DNA of 64,000 nt from a bacterium (GTDB lineage Bacteria > 4484-113 > JAGGVC01). The stretch spans positions 30,158-94,157 of the forward strand of contig JABRWB010000008.1 in the NCBI GenBank assembly GCA_039961635.1. Direction: 5' to 3'. Of the stretch, positions 21,526-55,949 are shown one piece after another. The notes beneath the pieces were generated by a model, which was not told the DNA's origin, did not search any database, and saw only the letters and a program-made list of their open reading frames with translations. How positions within the stretch are numbered: the stretch's first letter is position 1; the number at the start of each line of letters is the position of its first letter. A program made the translations under genes and the position numbers.

Positions 21526-24273
21526 GTGAGTTTACGTCGCAGATTCAGGCATTCCCCCAGCATCCAGGACGTCTTCAGACGGTACTTTCTGTCGTTCACT
21601 CTTGGGCCTCTGATTCTGCTCGGCCTATATCTGGGATGGCAGTTTTACGCCGCGCTTGAACGGACTGCGATGCGCACCATTGAAGCGGACAGGCACATCG
21701 CGTCCAATTTGGCGGAGGAGTTTTTCCGCGAAAGCATGGACAGGCTGGATTTGCTTTCCAAAAGGACGACAGTGCGGGCGCTTTTCGGCGAATACGCGAA
21801 AAACTCCGGGGACGAGGGCAGCATCCTTGCCGGCTTGGAGCGCGAATTCAAACTCTTCGCACTCGAGCCGGATTCCCATGTAATGGAGCTTTTGGTTTTC
21901 GACGGCGCGACCGGCGACTGCATAATGGACATGGTTTTCAGGCCGGAGTTATCCGCTGACTCTGTCGGAAAGAATTTCAGGGAAGAGAGGCTGTTCGAAT
22001 ACGGCAAAACAGGCAGTTACAATCCGCCCCTGGCTTTCGACCGCAGGCTTTCGCAGGTCGCGTTATCGCAGAGCACGCCGGTTGTCCTTCCGAGCGGAAG
22101 AAGCTTCGTGATTGCGCAGCACGTGGACGCCGTGGGCTGGCTTAAAAGAACGCGCAAGCTGTTCGAAAAGAGCTGGAACACGAGCATCGCAATATTCACG
22201 ATTGACGGACGAAACCTGGAATGGTCCGAAAGCCAGTCCGCCACCGTCAGGGAGTCATTCGCGTACAGTCAGGCGATAGAGCGCGCGCGTCTCGGGGAAA
22301 CCGACTCCGCGCGATACTGGAATCACACGGGGGTGCTCGTCCTAGGCAGCTTCACCGTGCTTTCGGGCAAGCAGGCAATCGTCGTGGCGGAACTGCCCCT
22401 CGCCGCTTTTGTGGAAGAGATGAAAAGCACGGCAATAATTCTCGGGCCGCCCCTGCTTGTCCTTTTCCTTTCCATTTTCATTTTGACTGCGCTTCAGGCG
22501 CGCAGATTTTCCCGCCCCCTGATCCAGCTTGTTGCGCGCTGCCGCGAAATCGCCGAGGGCGACTGGGAGCGGATGGTCGCGATAAGCGGGGTAATGGAAC
22601 TTGAACTTCTCGGCAACAGCTTCAACGCGATGGCGCGCGATTTGTCCACCTCGTTCAAGGAACGCGAATCAATCAACAGGTCTCTGGAGGAGGCGAACCG
22701 GCTGTTAACCAAGAAAAACGAAGAGCTTTACGAGAGCGAAACCAAATACCGCGACTTGTACGAAAACAGCTTGGACGGGCTTTACACTTTCGATCCGGAT
22801 ACCGGAAAGTACATCATGTACAACCGCAAGTTCTGCGAAATAACCGGTTACAGTTTTGAAGAGCTGGGCGGAATCAGCGTTGACGATATCGTTCCACCGG
22901 AGGAGCGCGCGTACGCGGACGAGCAGCGGGAACTTCGCAGGCGCGGACAGAAGCTGGATTCCCCTTACGAGCTTTACATCAAGCGGAAGGATGGAACTTA
23001 TATTTACGTGGAAGTTTACAGCAGGCCGATTCCGGGAAGCCATTGCTTTGCGGGATCCGTCCGAGACGTGACGGAGAGGGTAAAACTCGAAAAAGACATC
23101 ATCGAAAAAAACCAGCAGCTTGAAAAGCTGAATGAAAGCCTGGAAACTCTGGTCCAGGAGCGCACAAGGACTCTGATCGCGCTTAAGGAGCTGCACGAAA
23201 AAATAATCGCAAACGCGCCGGTGGGGCTGATGGTGGTGGACACCGAGCTGGCCGTGACGTTCGCCAACGACCTTATTCTGAAGCTTTGCGCGCCGGGCAG
23301 GATGGCCGCCGAAATATTGGGGCGGCCGCTCGATACCGAACATCCCATTCTCCCCGACCGCGCCTTTGAAAAACTCGCGGATTGCCTGCGCGGCGAATCG
23401 TTCTACAGCGAGGAAATCAAGTTCACGCCGGAAGGCGAAGAAGGCGCGTCGTACCTGGACATATGGGGCGTCCCGCTCGTCGGAGAAAACGAGGAAATCG
23501 AAGGAGCGCTGGTCATCGCCGCCGATCGCACACGCCAGGTGCAGATCAGGGAAGAGCTGGTCAAAAACCGGCGGCTTGCCGCGACCGGACAGCTGGCCGC
23601 CAGCCTTGCGCATGAAATCAACAACCCTCTGAATTCGATTCGATACAACCTTGAGCTTGCGGAAATGGACCTCGAAGATTTTGCCGAAAAGCATGCCCAA
23701 AACGGGATAGGGGCAATCGAGGAGTACCTTCACACCGTCAACCGCGAAATCGACAGGATCGGCGACATAGTCCGCAACCTTCTCGACCTTCATCGTTCTT
23801 CAAGGCTGTCGCCGATTCCTCTGGACCTCAATGCCGTAATCAACGATGTCCTCGTTCTGATGCGCAAGCAAATTTTGGAGCAAGGCGCGAAAGTCGTGTT
23901 CGAGCCGAAACACGGATTGCCGGATATCAACGGATTGTCCGGCCCGATCAAGCAAATTGTCATCAACATGATTACAAATTCCCTGCAGTCATTCGATGAA
24001 AAGCCGGGCAGAATAGACATCGCCACCGGAAGCGAGGGCGATTTCGGCTACTTCGTTGTTTCCGACGACGGCTGCGGCATCCCGCCGGAAGTGCTCCCGC
24101 GGATTTTCGAGCCGTTTTTCAGCACGAAGGGCTTGTCGGGCGTGGGGCTTGGGCTTGCCATCTGCGAAAGCATCGTGAACCAGTTCGGGGGCAGAATCGA
24201 AGTCGAAAGCGAAGTTGGACAGGGTACGCGGTTTGCCGTATACTTGCCTCTCTACAAAGATGACGGAAAGTAA
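21526..24273 (+). CDS. Membrane sensor histidine kinase (periplasmic sensor - HAMP - PAS - HisKA - HATPase)
   Basis: GTG start. Two TM helices flank an extracytoplasmic domain of about 270 aa. HAMP RRFSRPLIQLVARCREIAEGDW. PAS with YRDLYENSLDGLYTFDPDTGKYIMYNRKFCEITG. H-box HEINNPLNSIRYNLELA. G-boxes DDGCGIP and GVGLGLAICESIVNQFGGRIEVESEVGQGTRFAVYLP. Confidence 0.9.
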   Translation: MSLRRRFRHSPSIQDVFRRYFLSFTLGPLILLGLYLGWQFYAALERTAMRTIEADRHIASNLAEEFFRESMDRLDLLSKRTTVRALFGEYAKNSGDEGSILAGLEREFKLFALEPDSHVMELLVFDGATGDCIMDMVFRPELSADSVGKNFREERLFEYGKTGSYNPPLAFDRRLSQVALSQSTPVVLPSGRSFVIAQHVDAVGWLKRTRKLFEKSWNTSIAIFTIDGRNLEWSESQSATVRESFAYSQAIERARLGETDSARYWNHTGVLVLGSFTVLSGKQAIVVAELPLAAFVEEMKSTAIILGPPLLVLFLSIFILTALQARRFSRPLIQLVARCREIAEGDWERMVAISGVMELELLGNSFNAMARDLSTSFKERESINRSLEEANRLLTKKNEELYESETKYRDLYENSLDGLYTFDPDTGKYIMYNRKFCEITGYSFEELGGISVDDIVPPEERAYADEQRELRRRGQKLDSPYELYIKRKDGTYIYVEVYSRPIPGSHCFAGSVRDVTERVKLEKDIIEKNQQLEKLNESLETLVQERTRTLIALKELHEKIIANAPVGLMVVDTELAVTFANDLILKLCAPGRMAAEILGRPLDTEHPILPDRAFEKLADCLRGESFYSEEIKFTPEGEEGASYLDIWGVPLVGENEEIEGALVIAADRTRQVQIREELVKNRRLAATGQLAASLAHEINNPLNSIRYNLELAEMDLEDFAEKHAQNGIGAIEEYLHTVNREIDRIGDIVRNLLDLHRSSRLSPIPLDLNAVINDVLVLMRKQILEQGAKVVFEPKHGLPDINGLSGPIKQIVINMITNSLQSFDEKPGRIDIATGSEGDFGYFVVSDDGCGIPPEVLPRIFEPFFSTKGLSGVGLGLAICESIVNQFGGRIEVESEVGQGTRFAVYLPLYKDDGK

Positions 24274-25420
24274 TCCTGAAACTCCCACAATTCTGGTGGT
24301 GGACGACGAGCTTGAAGCGCTCAAAGCGATGGCGCAGCTCCTCGAGCGCCGCGGCGGCTACCGGACGCTCATCGCGGCCAGCGGCGAGCAGGCAATGGAA
24401 GTTATGGCCGCGAACAAAGTTGACATCGTCATCACCGATTTGCGGATGCCGGGAATGGACGGGCTTGAAGTTCTTCGCCGAATCAATACGGAGTACCCGG
24501 CGGTTGACGTGATAATCTCCACGGCGTACGCAAGCGTGGACAGCGCGGTGGACGCTTTGCGCAAAGGAGCCACGGATTACCTGCAGAAGCCGAACAAACC
24601 CAAGGAAATGCTGGAAAAAGTGCGGGAAATCCTGGAGCGCCGCACCAAAACAAAGCGGCGCGAGGCCGAATTGGAAGCCGTACGAAAGCGCGACGTAACG
24701 CGTGAAAGCGAGCTTCGAAAGGCCGGCGCAATCCAGCAACGATGGATTCCCCAGGGCTACCAGGGAAGGCACATCAGCCTGGTAACGGGATACCAGAGCG
24801 CCGAGGAGCTTTCGGGCGACTTTATGGACGTGGTCGAGCTGGACGAACGCAGACTGGGTTTCGTCGTGGGCGACGTCGTCGGCCATGGACTTCCCGCGAG
24901 CCTCCAAACGGGCATCGTCCAGCGCCTTATAAAAAAAGAGATGTTGGACGGCAAGTCCGCCGCGCAGGCATTCACTTCCATCAACTCGTTCCTTTACGAC
25001 GAATACCACATGGACAGCGCCTTCACCGCTTTCGCGGGCGTGTTTGACGGCGAGGAATACGTTTTAAGGTACGCAATCGGAGGGCATCCCCCTCCGATTC
25101 AGGTCACTCCTGAAGGAAAATGCTCCTTCCTAGAAACAAGCTGCCCCGGACTGCTCGTTGTACCTTCGCACGAATACGTCGAGCACGTGCTTGCGCTTTA
25201 TCCCGGAGACAGGCTTTGCATTTACACGGACGGCGTGGTGGAAACCCGCAACTCGGGAGGGGATTTGTTCAGCGAAACGCGCCTGGCCACATCGCTGTTA
25301 AAGCACGCGAAAAGACCCCTTTCCGGGCTTATAGCCGCGATCGAAGACGACGTTCGCGAATTCAGGGCGGACGCGCCGATAATCGACGATTTTTCGCTTA
25401 TGCTTGTCGAAATTATTTGA
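24260..25420 (+). CDS. Response regulator with a PP2C/SpoIIE-type serine phosphatase output domain (RsbU-like)
   Basis: REC domain ILVVDDELEALKAM...DIVITDLRMPGMDG...ATDYLQKP. PP2C block SGDFMDVVELDERRLGFVVGDVVGHGLPAS ... CIYTDGVVE. Start overlaps the kinase stop by 14 nt. Confidence 0.85.
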   Translation: MTESNPETPTILVVDDELEALKAMAQLLERRGGYRTLIAASGEQAMEVMAANKVDIVITDLRMPGMDGLEVLRRINTEYPAVDVIISTAYASVDSAVDALRKGATDYLQKPNKPKEMLEKVREILERRTKTKRREAELEAVRKRDVTRESELRKAGAIQQRWIPQGYQGRHISLVTGYQSAEELSGDFMDVVELDERRLGFVVGDVVGHGLPASLQTGIVQRLIKKEMLDGKSAAQAFTSINSFLYDEYHMDSAFTAFAGVFDGEEYVLRYAIGGHPPPIQVTPEGKCSFLETSCPGLLVVPSHEYVEHVLALYPGDRLCIYTDGVVETRNSGGDLFSETRLATSLLKHAKRPLSGLIAAIEDDVREFRADAPIIDDFSLMLVEII

Positions 25421-30955: not shown

Positions 30956-31780
30956 TCACCCGAACCGCACCCTGTCCAGCGGGATAACCGGGCCGTTGCG
31001 GCATGTCGTTATTCGCTTCTCCGTTCCGTCCTCGTCCACGACCGTCGCCACGCATCCGAAGCACGCGCCTATTCCGCACGCCATCCGCTCCTCCAGCGAC
31101 GCCTCGCCCGCAACCCGCCCCGCCGCCGTCCGCTGCACCGCCGCCATCATCGGGGTCGGCCCGCAGCATGCGACGTAGTCCAAATTTTCGTTTTCCAGGC
31201 AATTCGCGAGCAAGTCCACGACCGAGCCATGATGCCCGAAGCTCCCGTCATCCGTTGAGTATTTTGGAGCCATTTTTTCGCGTTCGAACAAAGGGATGCA
31301 AAGCGCCTCTTTTTTTCTGGCGCCCATGAAGAATTCCACCCGCACTTCCGGCCGCGTTTCACGCAATTTCCGGGCGAGAAAGATCAGCGGCGCGTTGCCC
31401 ACGCCGCCCGCCACGAGCGCAACCTTGCGGGCGCCTTCGGGCACCGTGAATCCTTTGCCCAGCGGAAGCAGAATCTTCAGTCCGGTGCCTTCCGGACGGG
31501 CCGCAAGCCATCTCGTCCCTGAGCCCGCCGCGTGGTAGTAAATCTCGATTTCATGCCGCTTTACGTCGTATCCGAGCACCGAAAACGGCCGGTAAAGCCT
31601 GCCCCACGGCGTGTCGTCGCACTTGAGGTTGACGAACTGGCCTGGCAGGAATCCGCCGCCGTAATCCGGGCACGCGAGCCTGATCAGATGGTGCCCCGCG
31701 GCGAATTCGAGTTGCGAAACCACCGTACAGCCCAAGTGCGAGTACTTCCTGGCCTCGATTGAGCGCTCCGCGTCATGCAT
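30956..31780 (-). CDS. PyrK-like FAD/NAD(P)-binding oxidoreductase with C-terminal [2Fe-2S] cluster (dihydroorotate dehydrogenase electron-transfer-subunit family)
   Basis: FNR-family FAD motif RLYRPFSV, NAD(P) motif ALVAGGVGNAPL, C-terminal cysteine cluster CGIGACFGC...C. Confidence 0.75.
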   Translation of the reverse strand: MHDAERSIEARKYSHLGCTVVSQLEFAAGHHLIRLACPDYGGGFLPGQFVNLKCDDTPWGRLYRPFSVLGYDVKRHEIEIYYHAAGSGTRWLAARPEGTGLKILLPLGKGFTVPEGARKVALVAGGVGNAPLIFLARKLRETRPEVRVEFFMGARKKEALCIPLFEREKMAPKYSTDDGSFGHHGSVVDLLANCLENENLDYVACCGPTPMMAAVQRTAAGRVAGEASLEERMACGIGACFGCVATVVDEDGTEKRITTCRNGPVIPLDRVRFG

Positions 31781-31935
31781 CGGCGGGATTCTAGCAGGCC
31801 GGACGGACTTTGCGACGCATCGGGCCGTTCGCCGGAAAGATGACGTGCCGGCCTAACGGAGGCTCTCCGGAAAAAAATCTTGACGGGGTTCGATAAACGG
31901 CCCAAGTTTGTGGTAGAATTGATTACTCCCAAAAT

Positions 31936-31987
31936 TCTCCCTCCTATTTTGTCCGAGGGAGGAGGGTAACCCCTCCTCCCTTTTTTT
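31936..31987 (+). terminator. Attenuator-like unit 1 of 3: two mutually exclusive hairpins. The second is followed by a T8 tract, giving an intrinsic-terminator form on the + strand.
   Basis: CTCCCTCC-tattttgtccga-GGGAGGAGGG-taac-CCCTCCTCCC-TTTTTTTT. Stem 1 pairs CTCCCTCC with GGGAGGAG; stem 2 pairs GGGAGGAGGG with CCCTCCTCCC and shares its 5' arm with stem 1. Confidence 0.6.
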
Positions 31988-32096
31988 TCGCTTGAACACT
32001 TCCGGAAGACGGCCATTCCCGTGAAAACCCGCACATCGCCCGCGGCGCGCCCAAGCCGCGTTCGCTTGTGATAAAATGTGGTCACAATTCAATTAA

Positions 32097-32144
32097 CTCC
32101 CTCCTATTTTGTCCAGGGGAGGAGGGCAAAACCCTCCTCCCTTT
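32097..32144 (+). terminator. Attenuator-like unit 2 of 3
   Basis: CTCCCTCC-tattttgtcca-GGGGAGGAGGG-caaaa-CCCTCCTCCC-TTT, 161 bp after unit 1. Confidence 0.55.
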
Positions 32145-32251
32145 GTTCCGTACGCTTGTGAATGGTTAGCAATCCGTTCCAAATCCCCCGCAATGACCAC
32201 GGCCAAGCATGTAACCGCATGTGGTGGTAAAATAAAACCAGAATGTAATTT

Positions 32252-32302
32252 CTCCCTCCTATTTTGTCCGAGGGAGGAGGGGAAAAACCCTCCTCCCTTT
32301 TT
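32252..32302 (+). terminator. Attenuator-like unit 3 of 3, about 30-60 nt upstream of the start of CDS 32332-33747
   Basis: CTCCCTCC-tattttgtccga-GGGAGGAGGG-gaaaaa-CCCTCCTCCC-TTTTT, 155 bp after unit 2. Confidence 0.6.
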
Positions 32303-32331
32303 GTCGCGGGGGCGCGGGATGGTGCAATCCG

Positions 32332-33747
32332 GTGAAACGTGATTCACCGCCGATACGGAGCTGTGTGGTGAATGAAATTTGGGCGCCTTTAATTGCTCTG
32401 ACATCGGCTCTCCGCTTTGCTAACATTCCAGCCGTGTCCATTCCCGACCACACGCTTCGCTTCAACCGCCGCTCGCCCGAGTTCGCGCTCGACTGGGCGT
32501 GGCTTGCGCTTGCCGATTCCCGCCCGCCGGAGAATCCCGACATTTCTTTCCGCCGGCTCGCCGATGCGAAGGAAACGGCCCGCGGCCTGTTCGTGAGCCG
32601 CCAGATGAAGCTCGCGGATTTGCAAATCCTTCGCGGCCGGGTAGAAAAAGCCGCCCGCGCAAAGACCGATGCCGAAGTGGAATACGAGTTGTTCCTGGAG
32701 AGCCTTGACGCTTCCGCCGCCGCGGCGAAGCGAACCGTCAATCCGCTCAAAAAGCTTTCGGAAGACAAAAAGCGCGAAGAGCTGCTCAAGAAAAAAGCCG
32801 GACCGGTCAAGGCCGCCCGCGAAGTGCACGCCGCGCTGGAAAAACAGCTCGCGGCACTTGAAGCGGAGATCGCGAAGCTCGAAGCCGGCAGGGAAGCCGC
32901 GCTCGCGAATTCAGCCGCACTGGAAGAGCGATGGATTGCCGCGGCGTCCGCCGAGGCGCTGTCGATGCTCGCATCGGAGGGGCCGGATTCGGCCGCGGCG
33001 GCGCTCGAAGCGCGGCTGGGACGGGATCCGCGGCGGATCGAATTCAATTTCCTGCTGTGGATGTGCGCGCAAATCGCATCCGGGCTGTCAGCCGATCCCG
33101 AAAAGCTATTGCATAAATCCCGCGCCGCGATCGCGGAGATACGCGCTTCGGACGCGCACGCGCTCGCAGCCGCGATGGAAGCCTGCGATTCGCCTTCCGC
33201 ACCGGAGTCGCCGCCCGCCACGCCGTCCGACATCGGCGCGCGCGCATACCCGCTTTATTCGCTGTGCCGCGTGATGGCCGGCGCGCCCGCGCCGGCGGAG
33301 CTCGAACCGCCCCGGCTCGCCGCGCTGGCCGAAATTGTCAATCTCGCCGTCGCGGCCGAAAAACGCAGTGCGAAAACCGGGCAATTCGGCGACATTGCCG
33401 GAAAATCCCGCGACGCGGCTGCGCGGATTCTCGAATCCGGAAGCGATTTTCCCGACTCCGCGCTTGCATTGGCGGGCCACGTGCATATCCTTTGCGGCGC
33501 GGCCTCGGATTGGATCGATTTCCTCACGTCCAAGTCCGTTGCGCTTACGCCCGCGCACCGTTTTTCGCTTGGAATACTCGCGCTCGCGCACAAATCCGCC
33601 GGGCGCGAAGTCCCGTCCGCGCTTTTGGATATGTTCCGCAGGGGAAGGCCGGATTCCTTCCTTTGGTATACTCTTTCCGCGGTGGAGGGTGTGCCGCGCC
33701 TGGAGCATCCATTCGAATTCTCCGGCGGACTATTCCTGATCCCTTGA
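32332..33747 (+). CDS. Hypothetical coiled-coil protein (about 460-471 aa), first gene of a three-gene operon with the AAA ATPase
   Basis: GTG start (32332 or 32365/32368). Central Ala/Glu/Lys-rich coiled coil (KLADLQILRGRVEKAARAKTDAEVEYELFLESLDASAAAAKRT...LEAEIAKLEAGREAALANSAALEERW). The C-terminal 200 aa are Ala-rich helical. No known motif recognised. Confidence 0.6.
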   Translation: MKRDSPPIRSCVVNEIWAPLIALTSALRFANIPAVSIPDHTLRFNRRSPEFALDWAWLALADSRPPENPDISFRRLADAKETARGLFVSRQMKLADLQILRGRVEKAARAKTDAEVEYELFLESLDASAAAAKRTVNPLKKLSEDKKREELLKKKAGPVKAAREVHAALEKQLAALEAEIAKLEAGREAALANSAALEERWIAAASAEALSMLASEGPDSAAAALEARLGRDPRRIEFNFLLWMCAQIASGLSADPEKLLHKSRAAIAEIRASDAHALAAAMEACDSPSAPESPPATPSDIGARAYPLYSLCRVMAGAPAPAELEPPRLAALAEIVNLAVAAEKRSAKTGQFGDIAGKSRDAAARILESGSDFPDSALALAGHVHILCGAASDWIDFLTSKSVALTPAHRFSLGILALAHKSAGREVPSALLDMFRRGRPDSFLWYTLSAVEGVPRLEHPFEFSGGLFLIP

Positions 33748-33766
33748 AACGCCGCGGGGCGCCCAG

Positions 33767-35329
33767 GTGGAAAAAGACTTCAGCATCGTGGACGAAATCG
33801 AGCTTCTCATCCGCGCGCGCTACCCCATCCTTTACGTCCAGAGCTTCGAGGAAGACCGCGTGATTCCCGCGCTTCGCCGCATCTGCGAAAAGCGCGGCAA
33901 GGAATATTTCGAGTGGGCGTGCACGGAAGGATTCACCAGCTTCAAGGCCGGCGAAAAGAAAATAGACTCCGCCACCCGCGACCCCGTCCAGGCGCTGGAG
34001 CATGTCGCGCAGTCGAAACTTAACGCGGTTTATTTGCTCAAGGACTTCCACCCGTTCCTGAACGACTTCACCGTGACGCGCAAGGTGCGGGACGTCGCGA
34101 TGGCGCTGAAAAGCAGCTACAAAACGATCGTCATCCTCTCGCCGGTGCTGCGCATCCCGACGGAGCTCGAAAAGGAAATAACCGTCGTGGATTTTCCGCT
34201 CCCGGATTCGAAAGAGCTTCTCGAAATCCTCGACAACATCGTCAAGCTTGTCGCGAAAGACCCGAAGGTCAAGGTAAACCTGACGCAGGCCGACCGCGAG
34301 AACATCGTCCAGGCCGCGCTGGGGCTGACCGCGAGCGAGGCCAAGCAGGCGTTCGCCAAGGCGATTGTCCACGACGCGTCCATTTCGTCCGCCGATATAA
34401 GCATGATCCTTTCGGAAAAGGAGCAGATCGTGCGCAAGGCGGGATACCTGGAATACTTCCGCTCGCAGGACGAGTTCGCGCACATCGGCGGGCTGGATTT
34501 GCTAAAAAGCTGGATGGCAAAGCGCGGCCGCGCGTTCGGCGAGGACGCGAAAAAATTCGGGCTGCCCGCGCCCAAAGGCGTGCTTTTGGTCGGCGTCCAG
34601 GGCTGCGGCAAGTCGCTGACCGCGAAGGCCGTCTCCGGATTGTGGCAGCTCCCGCTGCTGCGGCTCGACGTGGGCAAGCTTTTTTCCGGGGTAGTCGGCT
34701 CGTCCGAGGACAACGCGCGGCGCGCGATAAAGTCCGCCGAAGCAGTCTCGCCGTGCATCCTTTGGATTGACGAAATCGAAAAAGGGCTGTCTGGAGTGCA
34801 GTCAAGCTCGTTCTCGGACGCGGGCACGACCAGCCGCGTCTTCGGCACGATAATCACCTGGATGCAGGAGAAGGAAAAGCCCGTATTCATAATCGCGACG
34901 GCGAACGACATAACGCAGCTTCCGCCGGAGATGATGCGCAAGGGGCGCTTCGACGAGATATTTTTCGTGGATCTGCCGGAGCAAGGCGAGCGTGTCGAGA
35001 TTTTCGAAATCCACATCAAAAAGAAAAAGCGCGATCCGGAGAAGTACGACCTCGAAAAACTCGCGGAACTCGCCGTCGGATTTTCCGGCGCGGAAATCGA
35101 GCAGGCCGTTATCAGCGCGCTCTTCGACGCGTTCGACTCCGGCAAAGAGCTGACGCAGGCCAACCTGGAGCGCGCGATTACCGAAACCGTCCCGCTTTCG
35201 CGCACGATGAAGGAGCACATCGAGGCGCTGCGCGGCTGGGCGAAGACCCGCGCGCGGTTCGCGTCAAGCCGCGAAAACGTAGAGGAAATCCAGCCGCTGC
35301 CCGCCGGATTCAGCGCGCTCGAAATCTGA
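33767..35329 (+). CDS. Classical-clade AAA+ ATPase with an about 230-aa N-terminal domain (Ycf46-like family)
   Basis: Walker A LLVGVQGCGKSLTAKAV. Walker B ILWIDEIEKG. Sensor-1/arginine finger region IIATANDITQLPPEMMRKGRFDEIFFVDLP (classical AAA second-region-of-homology pattern). N-terminal ELLIRARYPILYVQSFEEDRV resembles the conserved N-terminus of cyanobacterial Ycf46-type ATPases (recalled from memory, not searched). GTG start 20 nt after the upstream stop. Confidence 0.8.
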   Translation: MEKDFSIVDEIELLIRARYPILYVQSFEEDRVIPALRRICEKRGKEYFEWACTEGFTSFKAGEKKIDSATRDPVQALEHVAQSKLNAVYLLKDFHPFLNDFTVTRKVRDVAMALKSSYKTIVILSPVLRIPTELEKEITVVDFPLPDSKELLEILDNIVKLVAKDPKVKVNLTQADRENIVQAALGLTASEAKQAFAKAIVHDASISSADISMILSEKEQIVRKAGYLEYFRSQDEFAHIGGLDLLKSWMAKRGRAFGEDAKKFGLPAPKGVLLVGVQGCGKSLTAKAVSGLWQLPLLRLDVGKLFSGVVGSSEDNARRAIKSAEAVSPCILWIDEIEKGLSGVQSSSFSDAGTTSRVFGTIITWMQEKEKPVFIIATANDITQLPPEMMRKGRFDEIFFVDLPEQGERVEIFEIHIKKKKRDPEKYDLEKLAELAVGFSGAEIEQAVISALFDAFDSGKELTQANLERAITETVPLSRTMKEHIEALRGWAKTRARFASSRENVEEIQPLPAGFSALEI

Positions 35330-36366
35330 TGGCTGGCATCCGCCCACTTGATTACCTTGCGGATTACTACCGCACGCGGCCGAACATATACGAGCTGCCG
35401 ATAGAGTCCTCGGGGCTTGCGGACGACGACCTGCATATAAAAACTTTCGGCAGGCTTGCCTCGCTCGCGATGCTGCGCCACGAGAAAACCGTCCTGCGCG
35501 GGATGAGACTGCTTGTCGAGGGAAGCTGGGAGGAATGCGCCGAAGAAATGAAACGCGCGCTGGCGACGATGCCGGGGCTGACCGACGCGCGGCTTTTGGC
35601 CGCGATCGCGTATTACATGCAGGGCAAGCCCGCGCTCGTCGCGAAAACGCTGGCGATTGAAATCGAGGGCGCGAATCCGGATCCCGCGGTGGGGCGGTAT
35701 TTCCGCGCGTGGCTCCCCTCGCTGCGAATACTCGTCCGGCTGGACGACGATCTGGTCGCGCCGTTTTATCCGAACCGGCTGGGGCTTTTCGCGCTCGCGA
35801 TCGCCGCGCAGCGCGAGCTGGGAAACTTCCGCGACGCGGGAATCGCAGTCGAGCAGGCGGCGGACGAGTTCGGTCTCACCGACGAGCTTTTATACTCCGC
35901 GCTGCTGCTGCACCTTCGCACGGGCGGGTACACCGAGGCGTGGCGGCTCGTCCAGACGCGGGAGTACAAGAACCGGGATTCGCTGGACGTCGGGCTTCTG
36001 ATGCTGCGCGCCGAGGCGATGATCGGCCCGCTGGGGATAAACCGCGCGCTCTCCGAATACCGCAGCGCGCTGCAATTCAGGGACAAGCGCTGCAAATGGC
36101 TGATGAACCGGGCGCGCTGGCGCATCGCGGAGCTGTACCAAATCGGGGGGTACTTCCCGGACGAGCGCGAAGCGCTTTGCGCGATAGAGCCGGAGTATTT
36201 TCCGGCGCACCTGAACGAAAGGCGGCTGGCCCGCATTGCCGAACTCCCCGCGCCCAAGGAAGAGCCGGAGGGACTTAAAACCGACGAGCGGTATTTCAAG
36301 CGGTTCGACTACGTCTGGCGAGGCAAGGTGCCGCCCGACGAGCCGGTGGATTTTCTGGAAGTGTGA
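35329..36366 (+). CDS. Hypothetical helical-repeat (TPR-like) protein, third gene of the AAA operon
   Basis: ATG overlaps the AAA gene stop (TGATG). 345 aa, all-alpha, with repeated A-x-x-Y-Y/A-x-x-L helical hairpins. Confidence 0.6.
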   Translation: MAGIRPLDYLADYYRTRPNIYELPIESSGLADDDLHIKTFGRLASLAMLRHEKTVLRGMRLLVEGSWEECAEEMKRALATMPGLTDARLLAAIAYYMQGKPALVAKTLAIEIEGANPDPAVGRYFRAWLPSLRILVRLDDDLVAPFYPNRLGLFALAIAAQRELGNFRDAGIAVEQAADEFGLTDELLYSALLLHLRTGGYTEAWRLVQTREYKNRDSLDVGLLMLRAEAMIGPLGINRALSEYRSALQFRDKRCKWLMNRARWRIAELYQIGGYFPDEREALCAIEPEYFPAHLNERRLARIAELPAPKEEPEGLKTDERYFKRFDYVWRGKVPPDEPVDFLEV

Positions 36367-45751: not shown

Positions 45752-47119
45752 TTGAGCGATACTTTGAATTACCTTGATTCGGCGGAAGGGCGAAGTGAAT
45801 CGTACATGCGCAGGCGGCGGTGCGCGCTGTACGACGCGTACTTTTCGGGCAGGCCGTACGAGAACGAGCGGGAGTGGCGCAGCCTGCTCGGGTACTCGGC
45901 GGAAGTTTCCGCACCCGCGATTGTAGTCAACTATCCGCGGCTGGTCGTGGAGCGTCCGGCGCACTTCGCGTTCGACCGGGTCGCGGGCGTGGAGGCGGCT
46001 GACCCCGCGGCGCAGGAATTCGTCGAGCGGGCAATCGCCGGACTGGAGATCGGCGGTATAAGCTCGCTGGATGCGCTTTTAAGCGAAGCGGCGATAGAGG
46101 CGTCCATCAAGGGTGACGCGCTGCTTGTGTTCGATCCGTCGGGATTGGTGAGCGCGGGAAATGCAGGCGAGACGCCGGCCCTCCCTGTTTCAGTCATCCC
46201 CGCGGAGGATTACACGCTTGAATGCGATCCCCACGACGCGTCGAAAATTGCGTTCATCCGCATCGAGTACCGGATCTCCGATGGGAACGGGAAAGAAACC
46301 CGGCACAGGCGGGAGCTGCATCCCGACCGGATTCTTGAATTCATCGGCGACGCGCCGAAGGGCCGCAGGATTTGGTTCGGCGGAAACGCGGCGCACCTTG
46401 CGGGCGCCGCGCCGGACGAGCCGAAGGAATGGCGGCTCGTCTCCGCCGCGAAAAATCCGCTGGGCGAGATACCCGCGGTCGTCGTGCGCAACCGGCCGCG
46501 CGTCGGGCGGGCTTACGGCGAAAGCGACTTCGCGGATCTGCTGACGATATTCGACGACATCAACTGGAAATACTCGCAGAGGTCGCGCAACATCAGCCGG
46601 ACGATGAACGCGATTCTGAAATCAGTGAACGGCCGGATTCTGAACGACGTGATTTCCGAAAACGGCGTGCTGTCGGTGATCGGCGAGGGCGCGGAAGTCG
46701 GGTATCTCATCAACGACGCGGACATGAGGGAGATCTCGACGCATATCGCGGAGCTGCGCCGGGCGCTTTTCGAAATAAGCGGGGTGACGGTGCTGGACGC
46801 GGAGAAGCTTTCCGGATACGGCGCGCTGTCCGGATTCGCGCTGTCCGTTTTGTATGAGCCATTGATCGCGCTTGCGGAGAAAAAGCGCCGGACGATCGGC
46901 GGCGCGGTGGAGCGGTTCCTGTCGAAGATCGTCCGGGCGGGATGGAAGCTGGGATTGATCGAAACCGAGCCGGAAAGCTTCGGCGTGCGGATCAAGTACG
47001 GCGCGATGTTCCGCGAAAGCGAGCGCGAGCTTGCGGAAAAGCAGTCGAGATTGCTCGCCGCGATCGACGCGGGACTTTTGACGAAGGAGCAGGCGGGGAA
47101 GGCAATGGAAACAAGTTGA
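45752..47119 (+). CDS. Phage portal-like protein
   Basis: TTG start 8 nt after GGAGG. 455 aa. Size and position immediately upstream of the capsid gene fit a portal; the family was not verified. Confidence 0.5.
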   Translation: MSDTLNYLDSAEGRSESYMRRRRCALYDAYFSGRPYENEREWRSLLGYSAEVSAPAIVVNYPRLVVERPAHFAFDRVAGVEAADPAAQEFVERAIAGLEIGGISSLDALLSEAAIEASIKGDALLVFDPSGLVSAGNAGETPALPVSVIPAEDYTLECDPHDASKIAFIRIEYRISDGNGKETRHRRELHPDRILEFIGDAPKGRRIWFGGNAAHLAGAAPDEPKEWRLVSAAKNPLGEIPAVVVRNRPRVGRAYGESDFADLLTIFDDINWKYSQRSRNISRTMNAILKSVNGRILNDVISENGVLSVIGEGAEVGYLINDADMREISTHIAELRRALFEISGVTVLDAEKLSGYGALSGFALSVLYEPLIALAEKKRRTIGGAVERFLSKIVRAGWKLGLIETEPESFGVRIKYGAMFRESERELAEKQSRLLAAIDAGLLTKEQAGKAMETS

Positions 47120-47213
47120 CAGTTGGACAGTTGACAGTTCGACAGTTAACTGCGGTTGTTCGACAAAATACACCGGACATGCGAAGCAACTGTCAACTGT
47201 TAACTGTCAACTC
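47115..47213. repeat. Iteron-like inverted-repeat array between the portal and capsid genes
   Basis: Left arm GTTGACAGTTGGACAGTTGACAGTTCGACAGTTAACTG (4 x ACAGTTN). A 26-nt spacer follows. The right arm CAACTGTCAACTGTTAACTGTCAACTC is the inverted complement. Confidence 0.7.
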
Positions 47214-47286
47214 TGAACTTGATTACAGATGCAATCCGGATTATCAACCGGAAAAAGAAACTATGTAATTTTAAGGAGGATCGTGT

Positions 47287-48198
47287 ATGGCACTGACTTT
47301 GGCGGACGCCGCGAAGCTTGAAACGGACGCGCTTAAAAAGGGGGTGATCGAAACCTTCGGCGAGTTCTCGCCTGTCTTGGAAGACCTTCCCTTCATCGAG
47401 GTGCAGGGCAACAGCTACAAGTACGCGATCGAATCGTCGCTGCCCGCGGTGGAATTCCGCGAGGTGAATTCGGCGTACACCGAGAGCGCGGGCGAGTTCA
47501 CGCAGGCGAGCGAACCGCTCGTCATATTCGGCGGCGTCGTGGACGTGGACCGCTACCTGCAGCAAACGCGCGGCAGCATAAACGACCAGCGCGCGATCCA
47601 GACGCGGATGAAGGTGAAGAGCCTGGCGCTCGCGTTCACGCGCAACTTTTTCGAGGGCGACACCACGGCCGACCCGAATTCGTTCGAAGGGCTTTCGAAA
47701 AGGCTGACCGGCGCGCAGGTGATAACCGCGGACGACGGCGGGCACAACGGCGACGACCTTTCCATGGATTACATGGACATGCTGATAGACGCTGTGTGGG
47801 GCGGGCCGGACGTGATTTACATGAGCCGCCACAACAGGCGCAAACTGACGCAGATCGCGCGCGAAACGAACTTCCTCGAAGTGTACCTGGACGACTTCGG
47901 CAGGCAGGTGACGCGCTACGACGGAATTCCGGTGAAGATAATCGGGAAGGACGAGACGAACGAGGAAATCCTGGGCAACGACGAAACCGAGGGCGAAAAC
48001 GACGAAACGAGCAGCATCTACGCCGTCAAATACGGAGCGGACGAGTTCGTGTGCGGGATTACGAACGGCGGAATCCAGGTGGACGACCTGGGGCTTATCC
48101 CCTCCCCCCCCGTGTACCGCACGCTTATCGAGTTCTACTGCGGACTGGCGGTGTTCCATCCGCAGGCCGCGGCTAGGCTGAAGGGGATAAACAAGTAA
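47287..48198 (+). CDS. Phage major capsid-like protein
   Basis: TAAGGAGGATCGTGT-ATG. 303 aa starting MALTLADAAKLETDALKKGVIE, with an acidic patch DETNEEILGNDETEGENDETS. Position and expression signal fit a major capsid protein; the fold was not verified. Confidence 0.55.
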   Translation: MALTLADAAKLETDALKKGVIETFGEFSPVLEDLPFIEVQGNSYKYAIESSLPAVEFREVNSAYTESAGEFTQASEPLVIFGGVVDVDRYLQQTRGSINDQRAIQTRMKVKSLALAFTRNFFEGDTTADPNSFEGLSKRLTGAQVITADDGGHNGDDLSMDYMDMLIDAVWGGPDVIYMSRHNRRKLTQIARETNFLEVYLDDFGRQVTRYDGIPVKIIGKDETNEEILGNDETEGENDETSSIYAVKYGADEFVCGITNGGIQVDDLGLIPSPPVYRTLIEFYCGLAVFHPQAAARLKGINK

Positions 48199-48572
48199 TG
48201 GTCAACCCCGGTTACCTGATGCTCGGCGGGAAAGTGCTTTTCGACGATCCGTACGCGCTCGCGCTCCGCGGAAGCGGCGCGGGCGCGCCCGCCGGGCGCG
48301 GGTTAAGGACGAGGCGGATGGCGGCGCGGCGCGCTGTTGATTTATCTTCCCGCAAAAGCAATGCAACAGGCGAAACCGCGGACGCGGAACCCGATTTGCC
48401 GCCTTTGAAAAAGCTGTTCGTGGCAAGGACGCGCAACCGGCGCTACACGGGCGAAATTTGCGGCGTCTGGTTTTCGGACGGGGAAGCGCTGTGCGCCAAA
48501 GAAGAGGCCGAGGCGCTTTTGGAAGCGGGATGCGAAGTTACGGTATGCGGAGGAACAGATGACTTTGAGTGA
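48198..48572 (+). CDS. Phage-cluster hypothetical protein (124 aa)
   Basis: ATG overlaps the capsid gene stop (TAATG). Continues the gene run. Confidence 0.45.
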   Translation: MVNPGYLMLGGKVLFDDPYALALRGSGAGAPAGRGLRTRRMAARRAVDLSSRKSNATGETADAEPDLPPLKKLFVARTRNRRYTGEICGVWFSDGEALCAKEEAEALLEAGCEVTVCGGTDDFE

Positions 48573-49143
48573 ATACATTCGGCTGGCATGCGGCGACGCT
48601 ACGGAGGGCGAGCAGGCGCTGTCGGACGGCGATATCGCGGACGTGCTTGCGGGCGCGGTGCTTTCTCCGGTCAGCCGGAATTTCATCCGCGCGATCCTGG
48701 AAAGCGGCGCGCGGGCGAGCGTCCTGAACCGCGCGGGCTGGGTGGAGCTGCCGCTTTCCGCGCTAAGTCCCGACCACAGGAAGTGGGGTTGCGGCCTGGG
48801 CGGCTGGCTGGACGGGCTGACCGACGTTTACATCGGCGGCGGGTTGCATCCGCTCGGCGAAAACGAAAGCATAAACAACCTGACCGGAATCGTGACGCTT
48901 TTGGCGGATCCGGGGGAGGGGGCGGCGGTCAGCGTGCGCACCTATCTTGTAGATCTGCCGCGGGCGGTCCACGACGCGCTGATGCTTATCGCGGGAAGCG
49001 AATCGCGGCTCGCGATCAAAGCGGGCGCGGGCGGTGCGGACGTGGACTTGTCCGGGCTCGCGGAGGCGCTGCGCAGGCAGGCGCGCGAGGTGATGGGCGC
49101 GGCGCCGGTCGAAATCGAGCAGCGGGGGGACTACCCGCACTAG
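48559..49143 (+). CDS. Phage-cluster hypothetical protein (194 aa; head-tail connector/adaptor-size)
   Basis: ATG start overlaps the upstream gene by 14 nt. Ordinary composition. Confidence 0.45.
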   Translation: MTLSEYIRLACGDATEGEQALSDGDIADVLAGAVLSPVSRNFIRAILESGARASVLNRAGWVELPLSALSPDHRKWGCGLGGWLDGLTDVYIGGGLHPLGENESINNLTGIVTLLADPGEGAAVSVRTYLVDLPRAVHDALMLIAGSESRLAIKAGAGGADVDLSGLAEALRRQAREVMGAAPVEIEQRGDYPH

Positions 49144-49151
49144 GAGCTGAA

Positions 49152-49550
49152 ATGCCGGACGGAACCAGACTAAAAGCGTTGTTCGAGCGGATGATACGCG
49201 TGCTCGGCGGAAGCGCGGAGGAAGTCTTCATCCGCACGTACGAGGAAACGGGCGGGCATCCCGAAAGCGGGATGCCGCCGGCGCGGATCGCGACCGATGT
49301 TCCGATTTCGCCGCGGCCGATTGTTCTGGCTGCGGATCAACAATTTTACGTTTTCAAAACGCGCGAAATCGAATCGGTGCGCATCGAGGCGGGCGACGTG
49401 AAAATCGTGATGGACGCGGATGAAGGCGTCGAGGCGGAAACGATCCTGCATTTCCGCGGCGCGGACTGGCGCGTGTATCGCGTCGACGCACCCGTGTTAT
49501 TCGGAAGCGTGCAGGTGAAGATCGCGTACGCAAGGAAGGTGCAGGGATGA
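49152..49550 (+). CDS. Phage-cluster hypothetical protein (132 aa)
   Basis: GGAGCTGAA-ATG at 49152 (MPDGTRLKALFERM...). The track ORF 48588-49550 is a 5' over-extension in the same frame. Confidence 0.5.
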   Translation: MPDGTRLKALFERMIRVLGGSAEEVFIRTYEETGGHPESGMPPARIATDVPISPRPIVLAADQQFYVFKTREIESVRIEAGDVKIVMDADEGVEAETILHFRGADWRVYRVDAPVLFGSVQVKIAYARKVQG

Positions 49551-49993
49551 GGGACGCGATTACATCTCTTAACGCGTGGATTTCGGAAAAGCTGCCGGAC
49601 GTGGCGCACAGCTTCGCGCCCGGCTCGCCTGTGAGCTTTCCATGCGTCGTCGTCGTGCCGCGGACGTTGGGAGGAAAAACGAAGCCCGCGGGCGGGCCGG
49701 CCGCGCTGGCGACTGTCACGTTCCAGGCGGACTGCTGGGCGGACGGCGGCGACGCTTTGGCCGCGCGGACAATCGCGCAGCGGATACTCGCGGCGCTGCT
49801 TGGCGACACCGACCGCGGCGCGCGGATACCGCGACACCGGTGGATTTACGGGGAGGGGGAGCCGGTGCGGGCGGAGATGCGCGACGAGATGGTTGTGACG
49901 GACGCGCGGATAGCAGAAATTCCGATACGAGACGCGCCGGAGCTGCGGCTGTGCCGCGCGATTTTCGATCTGCGGTTTGTTTTGACGGCTTAA
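49547..49993 (+). CDS. Phage-cluster hypothetical protein (148 aa; tail-completion-size)
   Basis: ATGA overlap with the upstream gene. Confidence 0.45.
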   Translation: MRDAITSLNAWISEKLPDVAHSFAPGSPVSFPCVVVVPRTLGGKTKPAGGPAALATVTFQADCWADGGDALAARTIAQRILAALLGDTDRGARIPRHRWIYGEGEPVRAEMRDEMVVTDARIAEIPIRDAPELRLCRAIFDLRFVLTA

Positions 49994-50026
49994 CTAGAAA
50001 GTTAAGTCCATTTAAGGAGGATTTTA

Positions 50027-50841: not shown

Positions 50842-50850
50842 GAGGACGAA

Positions 50851-51494: not shown

Positions 51495-51503
51495 GGCAAA
51501 AAG

Positions 51504-54504: not shown

Positions 54505-54512
54505 GAGGACAG

Positions 54513-55913: not shown

Positions 55914-55949
55914 AATCGCGTCACGCGAGGCGTGACTAAGGAGAAATCA

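What the first reader, a model, noticed from the sequence alone, without database searches (positions are those of the whole stretch)
31936..32302. Three tandem attenuator-like switchable-terminator units in a divergent intergenic region, directly upstream of the unknown/AAA/unknown operon
Seen in sequence:
- Three near-identical units of about 50 nt start at 31936, 32097 and 32252, spaced 161 and 155 bp apart.
- Each unit reads CTCCCTCC / conserved loop UAUUUUGUCCGA / GGGAGGAGGG / 4-6 nt / CCCTCCTCCC / T3-T8.
- Two mutually exclusive helices are possible. The 3' arm of helix 1 (GGGAGGAG) is the 5' arm of helix 2, and helix 2 plus its U-tract is a textbook intrinsic terminator on the + strand.
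- The spacers between units are partly similar to each other (cgcttgtga..., gtggt..aaaat), so the array looks like about 160-bp tandem duplications.
- The array fills the gap between the divergently transcribed PyrK-like gene and the + strand operon 32332-36366. The last terminator ends about 30-60 nt before that operon's start.

Inference, with candidate readings:
- A triple transcription-attenuation leader, i.e. a ligand- or protein-controlled riboswitch-like array.
- Three tandem small-RNA genes, each ending in its own terminator.
- A target for GGA-motif RNA-binding proteins of the CsrA/RsmA type, since the hairpins are GGA-rich.

I do not recognise it as a known Rfam family from memory.
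Basis: partly seen in the sequence, partly recalled or inferred. Interest (0 to 1): 0.75.

Follow-up and report, generated by a model that had tools for sequence, protein, structure and literature searches.

The report
Three tandem small-RNA genes, new family
The three repeats are most likely three separate genes for a roughly 55-60-nt regulatory RNA with a free, C/U-rich 5' end complementary to ribosome-binding sites; it is a previously undescribed family in an uncultivated bacterial lineage, but of a well-known kind, and probably not a triple attenuator.

Summary
Three ~54-nt units start at 31937, 32097 and 32252 (+), each with CTCCCTCCTATTTTGTCC, a 12-bp G/C-rich hairpin and a T-tract. The interpretation needs changing.

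- Each unit has its own -10 box, with a TG extension in all three window units, 17-19 nt upstream.
- In the full-length RNA the terminator dominates and the 5' stretch is unpaired (P >= 0.95).
It is about 10 kcal/mol weaker and is displaced over a low barrier.
- The downstream operon appears to have its own promoter, in a leaderless layout.

Relatives fall into four sequence types beyond the window's own. They keep AAATTCTCCCTCCTATT invariant while the adjacent protein is about 31% identical, and the hairpin shows compensatory changes at 6 of 12 pairs. Where the contig is long enough to tell, they carry one copy, always just upstream of the same AAA+ ATPase operon, whatever lies on the other side.

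No Rfam family matches. The best reading is a new family of independently transcribed, trans-acting sRNAs with an anti-Shine-Dalgarno-like seed, triplicated here. It works like LhrC, RsaE/RoxS and CcsR but is not a member of any of them. Expression, targets and the reason for the operon linkage are untested.

The parts
31890..31919 (+). Promoter of unit 1: TCGATA (31890-31895), 18-nt spacer, TG-extended -10 TGTGGTAGAAT (31909-31919)
   Evidence: Promoter scan. The -10 box is conserved in all 9 family members, and the TCGATA box at -35 spacing recurs in L011, L010/L090 and L091.
31926..31989 (+). Unit 1 predicted sRNA, about 62 nt. The 5' end is inferred at about 7 nt after the -10 box. Invariant 17-mer AAATTCTCCCTCCTATT 31932-31948, terminator stem 31955-31966/31971-31982, T8 31981-31988.
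   Evidence: CM score 82.8 bits. The 5' and 3' ends are inferred, not mapped.
32067..32077 (+). Extended -10 box of unit 2, TGTGATAAAAT. No -35 match.
   Evidence: It ends 19 nt before CTCCCTCC.
32084..32148 (+). Unit 2 predicted sRNA: seed CTCCCTCC 32097-32104, stem 32115-32126/32132-32143, weak T-tract TTTGTT 32142-32147.
   Evidence: CM score 63.8 bits.
32225..32233 (+). Extended -10 box of unit 3, TGgTAAAAT. No -35 match.
   Evidence: It ends 18 nt before CTCCCTCC.
32240..32304 (+). Unit 3 predicted sRNA: seed 32252-32259, stem 32270-32281/32288-32299, T-tract TTTTTGT 32298-32304.
   Evidence: CM score 70.4 bits.
32398..32436 (+). Candidate promoter of the operon itself: CTGACA-N17-TGcTAACAT (32398-32426), ending 7 nt before an in-frame GTG at 32434, a leaderless-type layout. 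A second, weaker candidate is TGGTGCAAT at 32320-32328.
   Evidence: Promoter scan. The same layout (extended -10, then 6 nt, then GTG) is seen in L010/L090 and L045. The N-terminal alignment favours a start near 32434. This is inferred, not mapped.
32332..36366 (+). Linked operon, not part of the RNA but always next to it: unknown protein (ORF from 32332; likely start 32368 or 32434) to 33747, AAA+ ATPase 33767-35329, unknown protein 35329-36366.
   Evidence: The unit lies just upstream on the same strand in L010, L090, L045/L027, L091 and L092.

Best explanation
Each unit is an independent gene for a small RNA of about 50-62 nt. It consists of a sigma-70-type promoter (a -10 hexamer, TG-extended in six of nine units), a 5' single-stranded C/U-rich segment (AAAUUCUCCCUCCUAUU), a short linker and an intrinsic terminator. 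The free 5' segment resembles the anti-Shine-Dalgarno sequence. It most likely works as a seed that pairs in trans with G/A-rich ribosome-binding regions (GGAGGGAG-type) of target mRNAs and blocks translation initiation. The window genome carries three tandem paralogues, which would raise dosage. Relatives assembled on long contigs carry one copy. The gene is inherited together with the adjacent AAA+ ATPase operon, which has its own promoter.

Shown here: the repeat, the structure, promoter-like boxes, conservation and covariation, seed accessibility and synteny.
Inferred: transcription, RNA ends, trans action and the class of targets.
For: 1. Own promoters. All 9 distinct units, from the window and four further sequence types, have a -10 hexamer (TAGAAT, TAAAAT, TATAAT or TATTAT) ending 11-19 nt before CTCCCTCC. 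Six of nine have a TG extension. A TCGATA or TTGACT box sits at -35 spacing in six.

2. Own terminators. The 12-bp helix has changes on both sides at 6 of 12 pairs. 96% of cells are paired against 66-80% for slid controls, and 0 of 500 shuffles reach the observed covariation score.

3. Sequence-constrained, accessible seed. AAATTCTCCCTCCTATT is invariant apart from the first A (C in L010, L090 and L092) and window units 2 and 3, whose five 5'-most bases differ. The neighbouring gene-1 protein is only 31-32% identical across the same lineages. The probability that all 8 seed bases are unpaired is 0.95-1.00 in every unit.

4. Pairing partner class. 9 of 49 unrelated genomic contexts carrying the 18-mer are the exact reverse complement of an RBS plus start codon of a real ORF.

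5. The operon is a separate transcription unit. An extended -10 box ends 6-7 nt before the GTG start in L010/L090, L045 and the window.

6. Specificity. The family CM gives 58-83 bits for members and 30 bits or less for 50 or more control loci that contain the exact 18-mer by chance.

7. The weak Rfam resemblance is to RsaE/RoxS, through the C-rich stretch plus terminator. Multicopy CU-rich anti-SD sRNAs are an established kind (PMC4132741; PMC8034643).
Against: - There are no transcript data, so the promoters are consensus matches only.
- No convincing target was found among the start regions in the 64-kb window. The adjacent operon's own start regions lack GGAGG-type sites.
- Strict co-localisation with the AAA operon, on the same strand and just upstream, persists through at least three rearrangements of the other flank and through loss of gene 1 in L091. 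That is more than a free-standing trans-acting sRNA needs, and it hints at a cis or functional coupling that this explanation does not account for.
- The base of the terminator stem (GGG-R-GG / CC-Y-CCC) is conserved in sequence, and its 5' arm can always pair with the seed. Plain terminator function does not explain this.
- Whether this lineage uses Shine-Dalgarno sites widely is unknown.
Confidence: 0.6

Rival explanations
1. A cis-acting leader or attenuator of the AAA operon. Transcription starts at the unit's promoter. The CU-rich segment pairs with the 5' arm of the terminator as an antiterminator, and an unknown factor bound to the invariant 17-mer decides between read-through into the operon and termination. 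The terminated product would be a by-product, or would also act in trans as a dual-function RNA. The three copies would be stacked modules.
For: - The unit is always immediately upstream of the AAA operon on the same strand in all five lineages, even where the other flank differs and where gene 1 is missing.
- The alternative helix forms in the nascent RNA of every lineage (-10 to -15.7 kcal/mol).
- The 5' arm is always purine-rich and complementary to the seed.
- In window unit 3, the copy closest to the operon, the refolding barrier is high (11 kcal/mol).
Against: - Units 2 and 3 keep their own extended -10 boxes, which a stacked leader does not need.
- The operon has its own extended -10 box 6-7 nt before the GTG in three lineages. 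A read-through transcript would carry a leader with no SD.
- The terminator is favoured by a factor of 1e6 to 1e8, and the barrier is only 2.8-6.4 kcal/mol in 8 of 9 units.
- The 65-200 nt between terminator and operon is not conserved in length or sequence.
- There is no Rfam riboswitch or leader hit and no conserved leader ORF (read from the sequence).
- The seed's flanks AAAUU and UAUU are invariant although they do not take part in the alternative helix.
Confidence: 0.17
2. A protein-binding decoy RNA. The invariant single-stranded CU-rich 17-mer, or the G-rich stem, is the binding site of an RNA-binding protein. Candidates would be a KH, CSD or S1-type protein, Hfq, or a product of the adjacent operon. 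The RNA would titrate or guide that protein rather than pair with mRNAs. The reader's CsrA/RsmA idea is a special case.
For: - Invariance extends over 17 nt, including A/U flanks, which is longer than many seeds.
- The unit is tightly linked to an operon of two unknown proteins plus an AAA+ ATPase.
- There is a precedent for tandem anti-SD-motif sRNAs next to a gene for their RNA-binding protein: CcsR with CcaF1 (PMC8034643).
Against: - For CsrA specifically, all the GGA motifs are base-paired in the terminator stem and none lies in a loop. The PrrB/RsmZ model scores 14.4 bits against a gathering score of 44, and on the wrong strand.
- The operon proteins show no RNA-binding domain or any other known domain apart from AAA.
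- There is one binding site per RNA, unlike typical sponge RNAs.
Confidence: 0.1
3. No dedicated function: a locally amplified intergenic repeat or plain transcription terminators (REP/MITE-like), with the promoter-like boxes arising by chance in A/T-rich spacer.
For: The arms are low-complexity homopurine and homopyrimidine sequence. Short-read assemblies break at the repeat.
Against: - It is not dispersed: only 3 copies in the window. The 18-mer was found once in each of the two species-representative assemblies that carry it, L012 and L027.
- The 17-mer is invariant, and promoter, seed and terminator are conserved across lineages whose flanking protein is about 31% identical. The hairpin shows compensatory changes.
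- There are no terminal inverted repeats or target-site duplications.
Confidence: 0.03

Closest known systems
LhrC1-5 of Listeria monocytogenes (multicopy sRNA; PMC4132741)
   Same: Several near-identical copies, each described there with its own promoter. CU-rich (UCCC) single-stranded motifs pair with the G-rich Shine-Dalgarno region of targets and block translation. It is small and terminator-ended. Copy number is thought to act additively.
   Different: There is no sequence or Rfam relationship. LhrC is about 110 nt with two hairpins and three CU-rich sites in loops and a linker. This RNA is about 55-60 nt with one site at the extreme 5' end and only the terminator hairpin. The phylum differs, and there is no evidence here for an inducing regulator or for any target.
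CcsR / 'cuckoo' RNAs (Rfam ar14 group) of Alphaproteobacteria (PMC8034643)
   Same: Tandem arrays of homologous small RNAs carrying an anti-SD motif. The literal CCUCCUCCC string occurs in the window units. Both have a conserved gene neighbourhood that travels with the RNAs.
   Different: In CcsR the motif sits in the loops of two hairpins. Here CCUCCUCCC is the base-paired 3' arm of the terminator, and the exposed element is CUCCCUCCU at the 5' end. CcsR RNAs in Rhodobacter are processed from the 3' UTR of a DUF1127 gene, whereas each unit here has its own promoter. The neighbour here is an AAA+ operon, not a DUF1127 gene. No ar14 hit appears even at E <= 10.
RsaE / RoxS (RF01820) of Firmicutes
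   Same: C-rich single-stranded regions followed by a G/C-rich terminator. It is the best, though non-significant, Rfam alignment, made through UUCUCCC...UUUGU plus the terminator. The UCCC motif is known to target SD regions (PMC4132741).
   Different: It scores 20.6 bits against a gathering score of 79. The 5' hairpin and the second C-rich region of RsaE are absent, so this is not a member.
Intrinsic-terminator attenuators and riboswitch expression platforms
   Same: An upstream segment can pair with the 5' arm of a terminator, giving two mutually exclusive helices.
   Different: There is no aptamer or leader-peptide ORF. The terminator is favoured by about 10 kcal/mol with a low refolding barrier. 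A promoter precedes every copy, and another promoter lies between the last terminator and the operon.

Membership tests
Intrinsic (Rho-independent) terminator | G/C-rich hairpin immediately followed by a U-tract on the transcribed strand | tested here: met
   Terminator scan. Folds of -21 to -26 kcal/mol. The helix is supported by compensatory changes at 6 of 12 pairs. The U-tract is weak in unit 2 (TTTGTT) and interrupted in L010/L090.
Trans-acting base-pairing sRNA gene | Independent transcription unit: own promoter and own terminator | tested here: met
   A -10 box 11-19 nt upstream of every one of the 9 units, six with a TG extension. Terminator as in the row above. This holds at consensus level only; transcription was not observed.
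Trans-acting base-pairing sRNA gene | Conserved, single-stranded seed region | tested here: met
   17-mer invariant across lineages. P(unpaired) is 0.95-1.00.
Trans-acting base-pairing sRNA gene | Identifiable complementary target sites, conserved across genomes | tested here: inconclusive
   No outstanding site among 1296 candidate start regions in the window. The operon's start regions are not complementary. Whole genomes were not available. The seed is an exact complement of natural RBS sites in other bacteria.
Trans-acting base-pairing sRNA gene | The RNA is expressed as a discrete small transcript | not testable with these tools
   No transcriptome data are accessible.
Transcription attenuator / riboswitch leader | One promoter, with the leader continuous into the regulated gene and no intervening promoter | tested here: not met
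   Promoter boxes lie before each of the three units. An extended -10 box lies directly before the operon start in the window, L010/L090 and L045.
Transcription attenuator / riboswitch leader | An antiterminator able to compete with the terminator | tested here: inconclusive
   The alternative helix exists in all lineages (-10 to -15.7 kcal/mol). It is about 10 kcal/mol weaker, and the barrier to the terminator is 2.8-6.4 kcal/mol in 8 of 9 units and 11.0 in unit 3. A stabilising factor cannot be excluded.
Transcription attenuator / riboswitch leader | A sensor: a conserved aptamer, T-box-like element or leader-peptide ORF | tested here: not met
   No Rfam hit at gathering score in the window, and none relevant at E <= 10. 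Only about 20 nt precede the hairpin. No conserved start codon or ORF is present (read from alignment A6).
RsaE/RoxS (RF01820) | Covariance-model score at or above the gathering score | tested here: not met
   20.6 bits against 79.
CcsR / cuckoo (ar14) | CCUCCUCCC motif exposed in hairpin loops; two hairpins per RNA; DUF1127 gene neighbourhood (PMC8034643) | tested here: not met
   The motif occurs only in the paired 3' arm. There is a single hairpin, the neighbours are PyrK-like and AAA+ genes, and there is no ar14 hit.
CsrA/RsmA-sequestering sRNA (RsmZ/CsrB type) | Multiple GGA motifs in hairpin loops or unpaired regions | tested here: not met
   All GGA motifs are paired inside the terminator stem. 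PrrB_RsmZ scores 14.4 bits against 44, on the opposite strand. Whether the genome has CsrA was not testable.
REP / MITE-type dispersed repeat | Many copies at unrelated intergenic sites | tested here: not met
   Three copies in the window, all at one locus. One 18-mer match per species-representative assembly in L012 and L027. No copy in about 70 kb of other contigs from a related genome.

The most novel reading that the evidence does not exclude
The RNA and the AAA+ operon form one functional module. One possibility is that an anti-Shine-Dalgarno-mimic sRNA damps translation of SD-led mRNAs while its co-inherited neighbour operon, expressed as a leaderless mRNA, escapes. Another is that the nascent seed:5'-arm helix, clamped by an unknown factor, gates read-through, making this a dual-function element that is both a trans-acting sRNA and a cis switch. 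Either would explain why the RNA has stayed glued to this operon through repeated rearrangements, and why the stem base keeps an SD-like sequence.
Probability: 0.12. Interest if true: 0.75.

Novelty: new member of a known kind. Interest (0 to 1): 0.42.

Why it matters
Little is known about regulatory RNAs in uncultivated lineages such as this one, where one relative's record is labelled Planctomycetia. This would be a clean, computationally well-supported sRNA family there, with promoter, invariant seed and covarying terminator. It has an anti-SD-type seed like those that arose independently in Firmicutes (LhrC, RsaE) and Alphaproteobacteria (CcsR). That adds a further case of convergence on C-rich sRNAs that target ribosome-binding sites, together with copy-number amplification. 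Its unbroken linkage to an uncharacterised AAA+ operon with leaderless-type promoters gives a concrete handle on both the RNA and the operon. The family model built here could be used to annotate it in metagenomes. In practical terms, the finding should not be catalogued as a new riboswitch or attenuator.

Tried and rejected
- **Rfam.** The whole window at gathering thresholds gave nothing. The locus at E <= 10 gave only noise-level hits.
- **Homologues of operon gene 1 by protein search.** Only the protein itself was found. Orthologues had to be found by synteny.
- **Exact 18-mer scans.** The genome collection gave 26 loci with 2 real (L012, L027). The metagenome collection gave 51 loci with 2 real (L045, L047). 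The rest are chance matches, many of them reverse complements of RBS sites. These scans require the AAATT prefix, so they may miss copies like units 2 and 3.
- **Viral contigs.** One chance hit.
- **MAFFT alignment of the units.** It mis-slid the C-rich arms. It was replaced by a CM-guided alignment, which leans towards the modelled structure.
- **Target search in the window.** No credible hit; the top score is an antisense artefact.
- **Pairing of the seed with the operon's own start regions.** Rejected.
- **Function of operon genes 1 and 3** through Pfam, NCBIfam, PADLOC and PDB sequence search: nothing. The PADLOC IetA and NCBIfam IteA hits on the AAA protein cover the ATPase domain only and are far below cut-off.
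- **Leader-peptide attenuation.** Rejected. Unit 1 has a 6-codon UUG...UAA frame that is not conserved in units 2 and 3 or in the relatives, and no SD precedes it (read from the sequence).
- **Minus-strand function.** Rejected. No T-tract follows the hairpin on the - strand, and the ORFs there (31684-32085, 32093-32404) are not conserved between units.
- **Taxonomic placement** via the literature on the accessions: nothing found. The phylum remains unverified.
Full report
**1. The observation**

The repeat is real. Direct-repeat analysis finds three copies of a 54-nt unit at 31937-31990, 32097-32150 and 32252-32305 on the + strand, spaced 160 and 155 nt apart. The 18-mer CTCCCTCCTATTTTGTCC occurs three times in the 64-kb window against 0.02 expected. 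An unfiltered covariance-model scan finds no fourth copy.

Each unit ends in a 12-bp G/C-rich hairpin with a loop of 4-6 nt, followed by a T-tract: T8 in unit 1, TTTGTT in unit 2 and TTTTTGT in unit 3. The terminator scan picks these up. The hairpins fold at -23.7 to -26.4 kcal/mol, 3.3-4.5 SD better than shuffles. The flanking genes are as described: a divergent PyrK-like gene with the DHODB Fe-S domain, and a + strand operon of unknown protein, AAA+ ATPase and unknown protein.

**2.

- **Each unit has its own promoter-like box.** Aligning the units with their upstream flanks shows that the 'partly similar spacers' are TG-extended -10 boxes: TGTGGTAGAAT (31909-31919), TGTGATAAAAT (32067-32077) and TGgTAAAAT (32225-32233). 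They end 17-19 nt before the conserved stretch. The rest of the spacers cannot be aligned. Unit 1 also passes the sigma-70 scan, with TCGATA at -35.
- **The 5' stretch is free in the finished RNA.** The terminator dominates the ensemble. The probability that all eight bases of CUCCCUCC are unpaired is 0.95-0.97.
- **The alternative helix is real but transient.** It forms when only the 5' arm has been transcribed (-11.8 to -15.7 kcal/mol in the window units). Once the 3' arm is available the terminator is favoured by about 10 kcal/mol, a factor of 1e7 to 1e8 in the window units. The best direct refolding path has a barrier of only 2.9-3.6 kcal/mol for units 1 and 2, and 11.0 for unit 3.

**3. 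Relatives**

The window matches JGI metagenome contig Ga0307753_100040. An NCBI MAG with a 100% identical PyrK-like protein is labelled only 'bacterium'. Two short-read assemblies of the same organism break inside unit 1, as expected at a repeat.

I found relatives in three ways: by synteny through the PyrK-like and AAA proteins, by exact-word scans of the genome and metagenome collections, and by covariance models. This gave nine distinct units, from the window and four further sequence types:

| Source | Details |
|---|---|
| Window | Units 1, 2 and 3 |
| L011 | PyrK-like protein 77% identical; near-identical orthologue of unit 1 |
| L010, L012, L090 | A 'MAG: bacterium' and two JGI metagenome contigs |
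| L027, L045, L047 | L027's record is titled 'uncultured Planctomycetia bacterium' |
| L091 and L092 | A JGI metagenome contig and GCA_964602075.1 |

The phylum could not be verified independently.

All of them share the same architecture: a -10 hexamer, then 11-19 nt, then AAATTCTCCCTCCTATT, then a linker of up to 8 nt, then a hairpin, then a T-tract. The core CTCCCTCCTATT is invariant in all nine units. Only the first A and the A/T prefix of window units 2 and 3 vary. Across the same lineages the adjacent gene-1 protein is only 31-32% identical.

The hairpin is conserved as a structure. Six of 12 pairs show changes on both sides, for example A-U to G-C, and AGGG/CCCT to AAGC/GCTT. 96% of cells are paired against 66-80% when the partners are slid, and no shuffle out of 500 reaches the observed covariation score. 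The alignment was fitted to the model, which favours the structure somewhat. However, the compensatory changes are plain in the raw sequences.

The family model scores members at 58-83 bits. It scores 30 bits or less for more than 50 control loci that contain the exact 18-mer by chance.

**4. Genomic context**

Wherever enough sequence is available, the unit lies immediately upstream of the AAA+ operon on the same strand. The other flank varies:

| Locus | Gene on the other flank |
|---|---|
| Window, L010, L090 | PyrK-like gene |
| L045 | An unrelated same-strand ORF |
| L092 | An FTCD_C-domain gene |
| L091 | A 196-aa ORF |

In the genomes of L045 and L092 the PyrK-like gene sits on another contig. 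In L091 gene 1 is absent, and the unit directly precedes the AAA gene. The next-closest AAA clade, at about 60% identity, is a lone ATPase next to selB with no unit. So the RNA travels with the operon. The window's genome has three copies, whereas the relatives on long contigs show one.

The AAA protein is a classical Cdc48/p97-D2-type single-domain ATPase. Its two partners match nothing in Pfam, NCBIfam, PADLOC or PDB sequences.

**5. Is the unit a leader of that operon?**

Probably not, for four reasons.

- **The operon seems to have its own promoter.** In L010/L090 (TGATAGAAT) and L045 (TGGTACAAT) an extended -10 box ends exactly 6 nt before the GTG start, which is the layout of a leaderless mRNA. 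In the window, the best sigma-70 match of the region is CTGACA-N17-TGcTAACAT at 32398-32426. It ends 7 nt before an in-frame GTG at 32434. That start fits the orthologues' N-termini better than the longer ORF starts do.
- **A read-through transcript would be poorly translated.** It would carry a leader with no Shine-Dalgarno site.
- **The sequence between terminator and operon is not conserved.** It varies from about 65 to 200 nt.
- **There is no sensor.** There is no aptamer-sized conserved structure, no relevant Rfam family and no conserved leader ORF.

Together with the promoters retained before units 2 and 3, and the thermodynamic and kinetic dominance of the terminator, this disfavours the triple-attenuator reading. 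It does not exclude it, because an unknown factor could clamp the alternative helix. The strict operon linkage also still needs an explanation.

**6. Most likely mechanism**

These are small RNA genes whose product exposes an anti-Shine-Dalgarno-like, C/U-rich seed at its 5' end, followed only by a terminator hairpin and a U-tail. Such a seed would pair with GGAGGGAG-type ribosome-binding regions and block initiation.

As an illustration, 9 of the 49 unrelated genomic contexts that carry the 18-mer are the exact reverse complement of an RBS plus the start codon of a real ORF. The three tandem copies would raise dosage.

The following are inferred and not shown: transcription, the RNA ends, trans action and the target class. 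I could not identify targets.

The CsrA-sponge reading is not supported, because every GGA motif is buried in the stem.

**7. Comparison with known systems**

Functionally the closest are these:

- **LhrC1-5 of Listeria.** A multicopy family whose CU-rich UCCC motifs bind SD regions (PMC4132741).
- **RsaE/RoxS.** C-rich regions plus a terminator. It is the best Rfam alignment, but at 20.6 bits against a gathering score of 79.
- **The CcsR 'cuckoo' RNAs.** Tandem copies with a CCUCCUCCC anti-SD motif and a conserved neighbourhood (PMC8034643).

Membership fails for all three. The model scores are far below threshold. In CcsR the motif sits in the loops of two hairpins, whereas here the same string is the paired 3' arm and the exposed element lies at the 5' end. 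So this is a new family of a known kind.

**8. Unexplained**

- Why is the base of the stem conserved in sequence (GGG-R-GG / CC-Y-CCC), with a 5' arm that is always complementary to the seed?
- Why has the RNA never separated from the AAA+ operon?
- What is the TCGATA box at -35 spacing in most lineages?

These leave room for a coupled RNA-operon module, which is the most novel reading the evidence does not exclude.

Noticed in passing
window 32398-32436; L010 ~9671-9654 (-); L045 ~10646-10629 (-): The unknown/AAA/unknown operon appears to be expressed as a leaderless mRNA. An extended -10 box ends 6-7 nt before the GTG start in three lineages. The annotated or longest-ORF starts in the window (32332, 32368) are probably too far upstream.
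   Followed up: partly
window 31890-31895; L011, L010/L090, L091, L045 upstream of the units: A TCGATA (TTCGATA) box recurs at about -35 spacing upstream of the unit in most lineages but is absent before window units 2 and 3. It could be a variant -35 element or a regulator binding site.
   Followed up: partly
window 32332-33747 and 35329-36366: Both partners of the AAA+ ATPase are orphans. The word-indexed search of 5.8 billion proteins found only gene 1 itself, yet syntenic orthologues at 30-33% identity exist. Neither partner matches Pfam, NCBIfam, PADLOC or PDB sequences. Weak PDB hits suggest gene 1 may contain a coiled-coil-like stretch.
   Followed up: partly
window 45752-56000: An SPP1-type phage portal protein (45752-47119) is followed by a run of large + strand ORFs with no Pfam match. 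This may be a prophage or a phage-derived element.
   Followed up: no
L002 and L003, position 1 (= window ~31964): Two independent short-read assemblies of the same organism end inside unit 1, so the triplicated unit breaks assemblies. Copy number in other short contigs such as L011 may be under-reported. The 79 nt downstream of L011's unit look similar by eye to the window's unit 1-unit 2 spacer, which would suggest more than one copy there too.
   Followed up: partly
L010 2212-3285 and 11729-12359: The related contig carries DarT/Macro (DarTG-like) and HepT/MNT toxin-antitoxin pairs within 8 kb of the unit. There is no evident connection.
   Followed up: no
L046 and L083 (QMCD01 metagenome contigs): The family model gives many weak, regularly spaced hits. 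These contigs hold a tandem array of a unit of roughly 70-nt spacing containing ...CTACAATTCCTATCTAAATTCTCC.... It is unrelated to the family but is an unexplained repeat.
   Followed up: no
L095 7395-7447 (IMG/VR UViG_3300032038_000159): In an AT-rich phage contig, GAGGGAGA...TCTCCCTCC forms an inverted repeat just upstream of a GGGGAGG RBS and an ATG. This could be a local anti-SD/SD hairpin. It is a chance match to the search pattern and not a family member (18 bits).
   Followed up: no
window 3434-7399, 21526-25420: There are large hybrid sensor kinases (GAF/PAS/HisKA/REC) and a response-regulator-SpoIIE (PP2C) phosphatase pair. Their function is unknown, and no link to the RNA was examined.
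   Followed up: no
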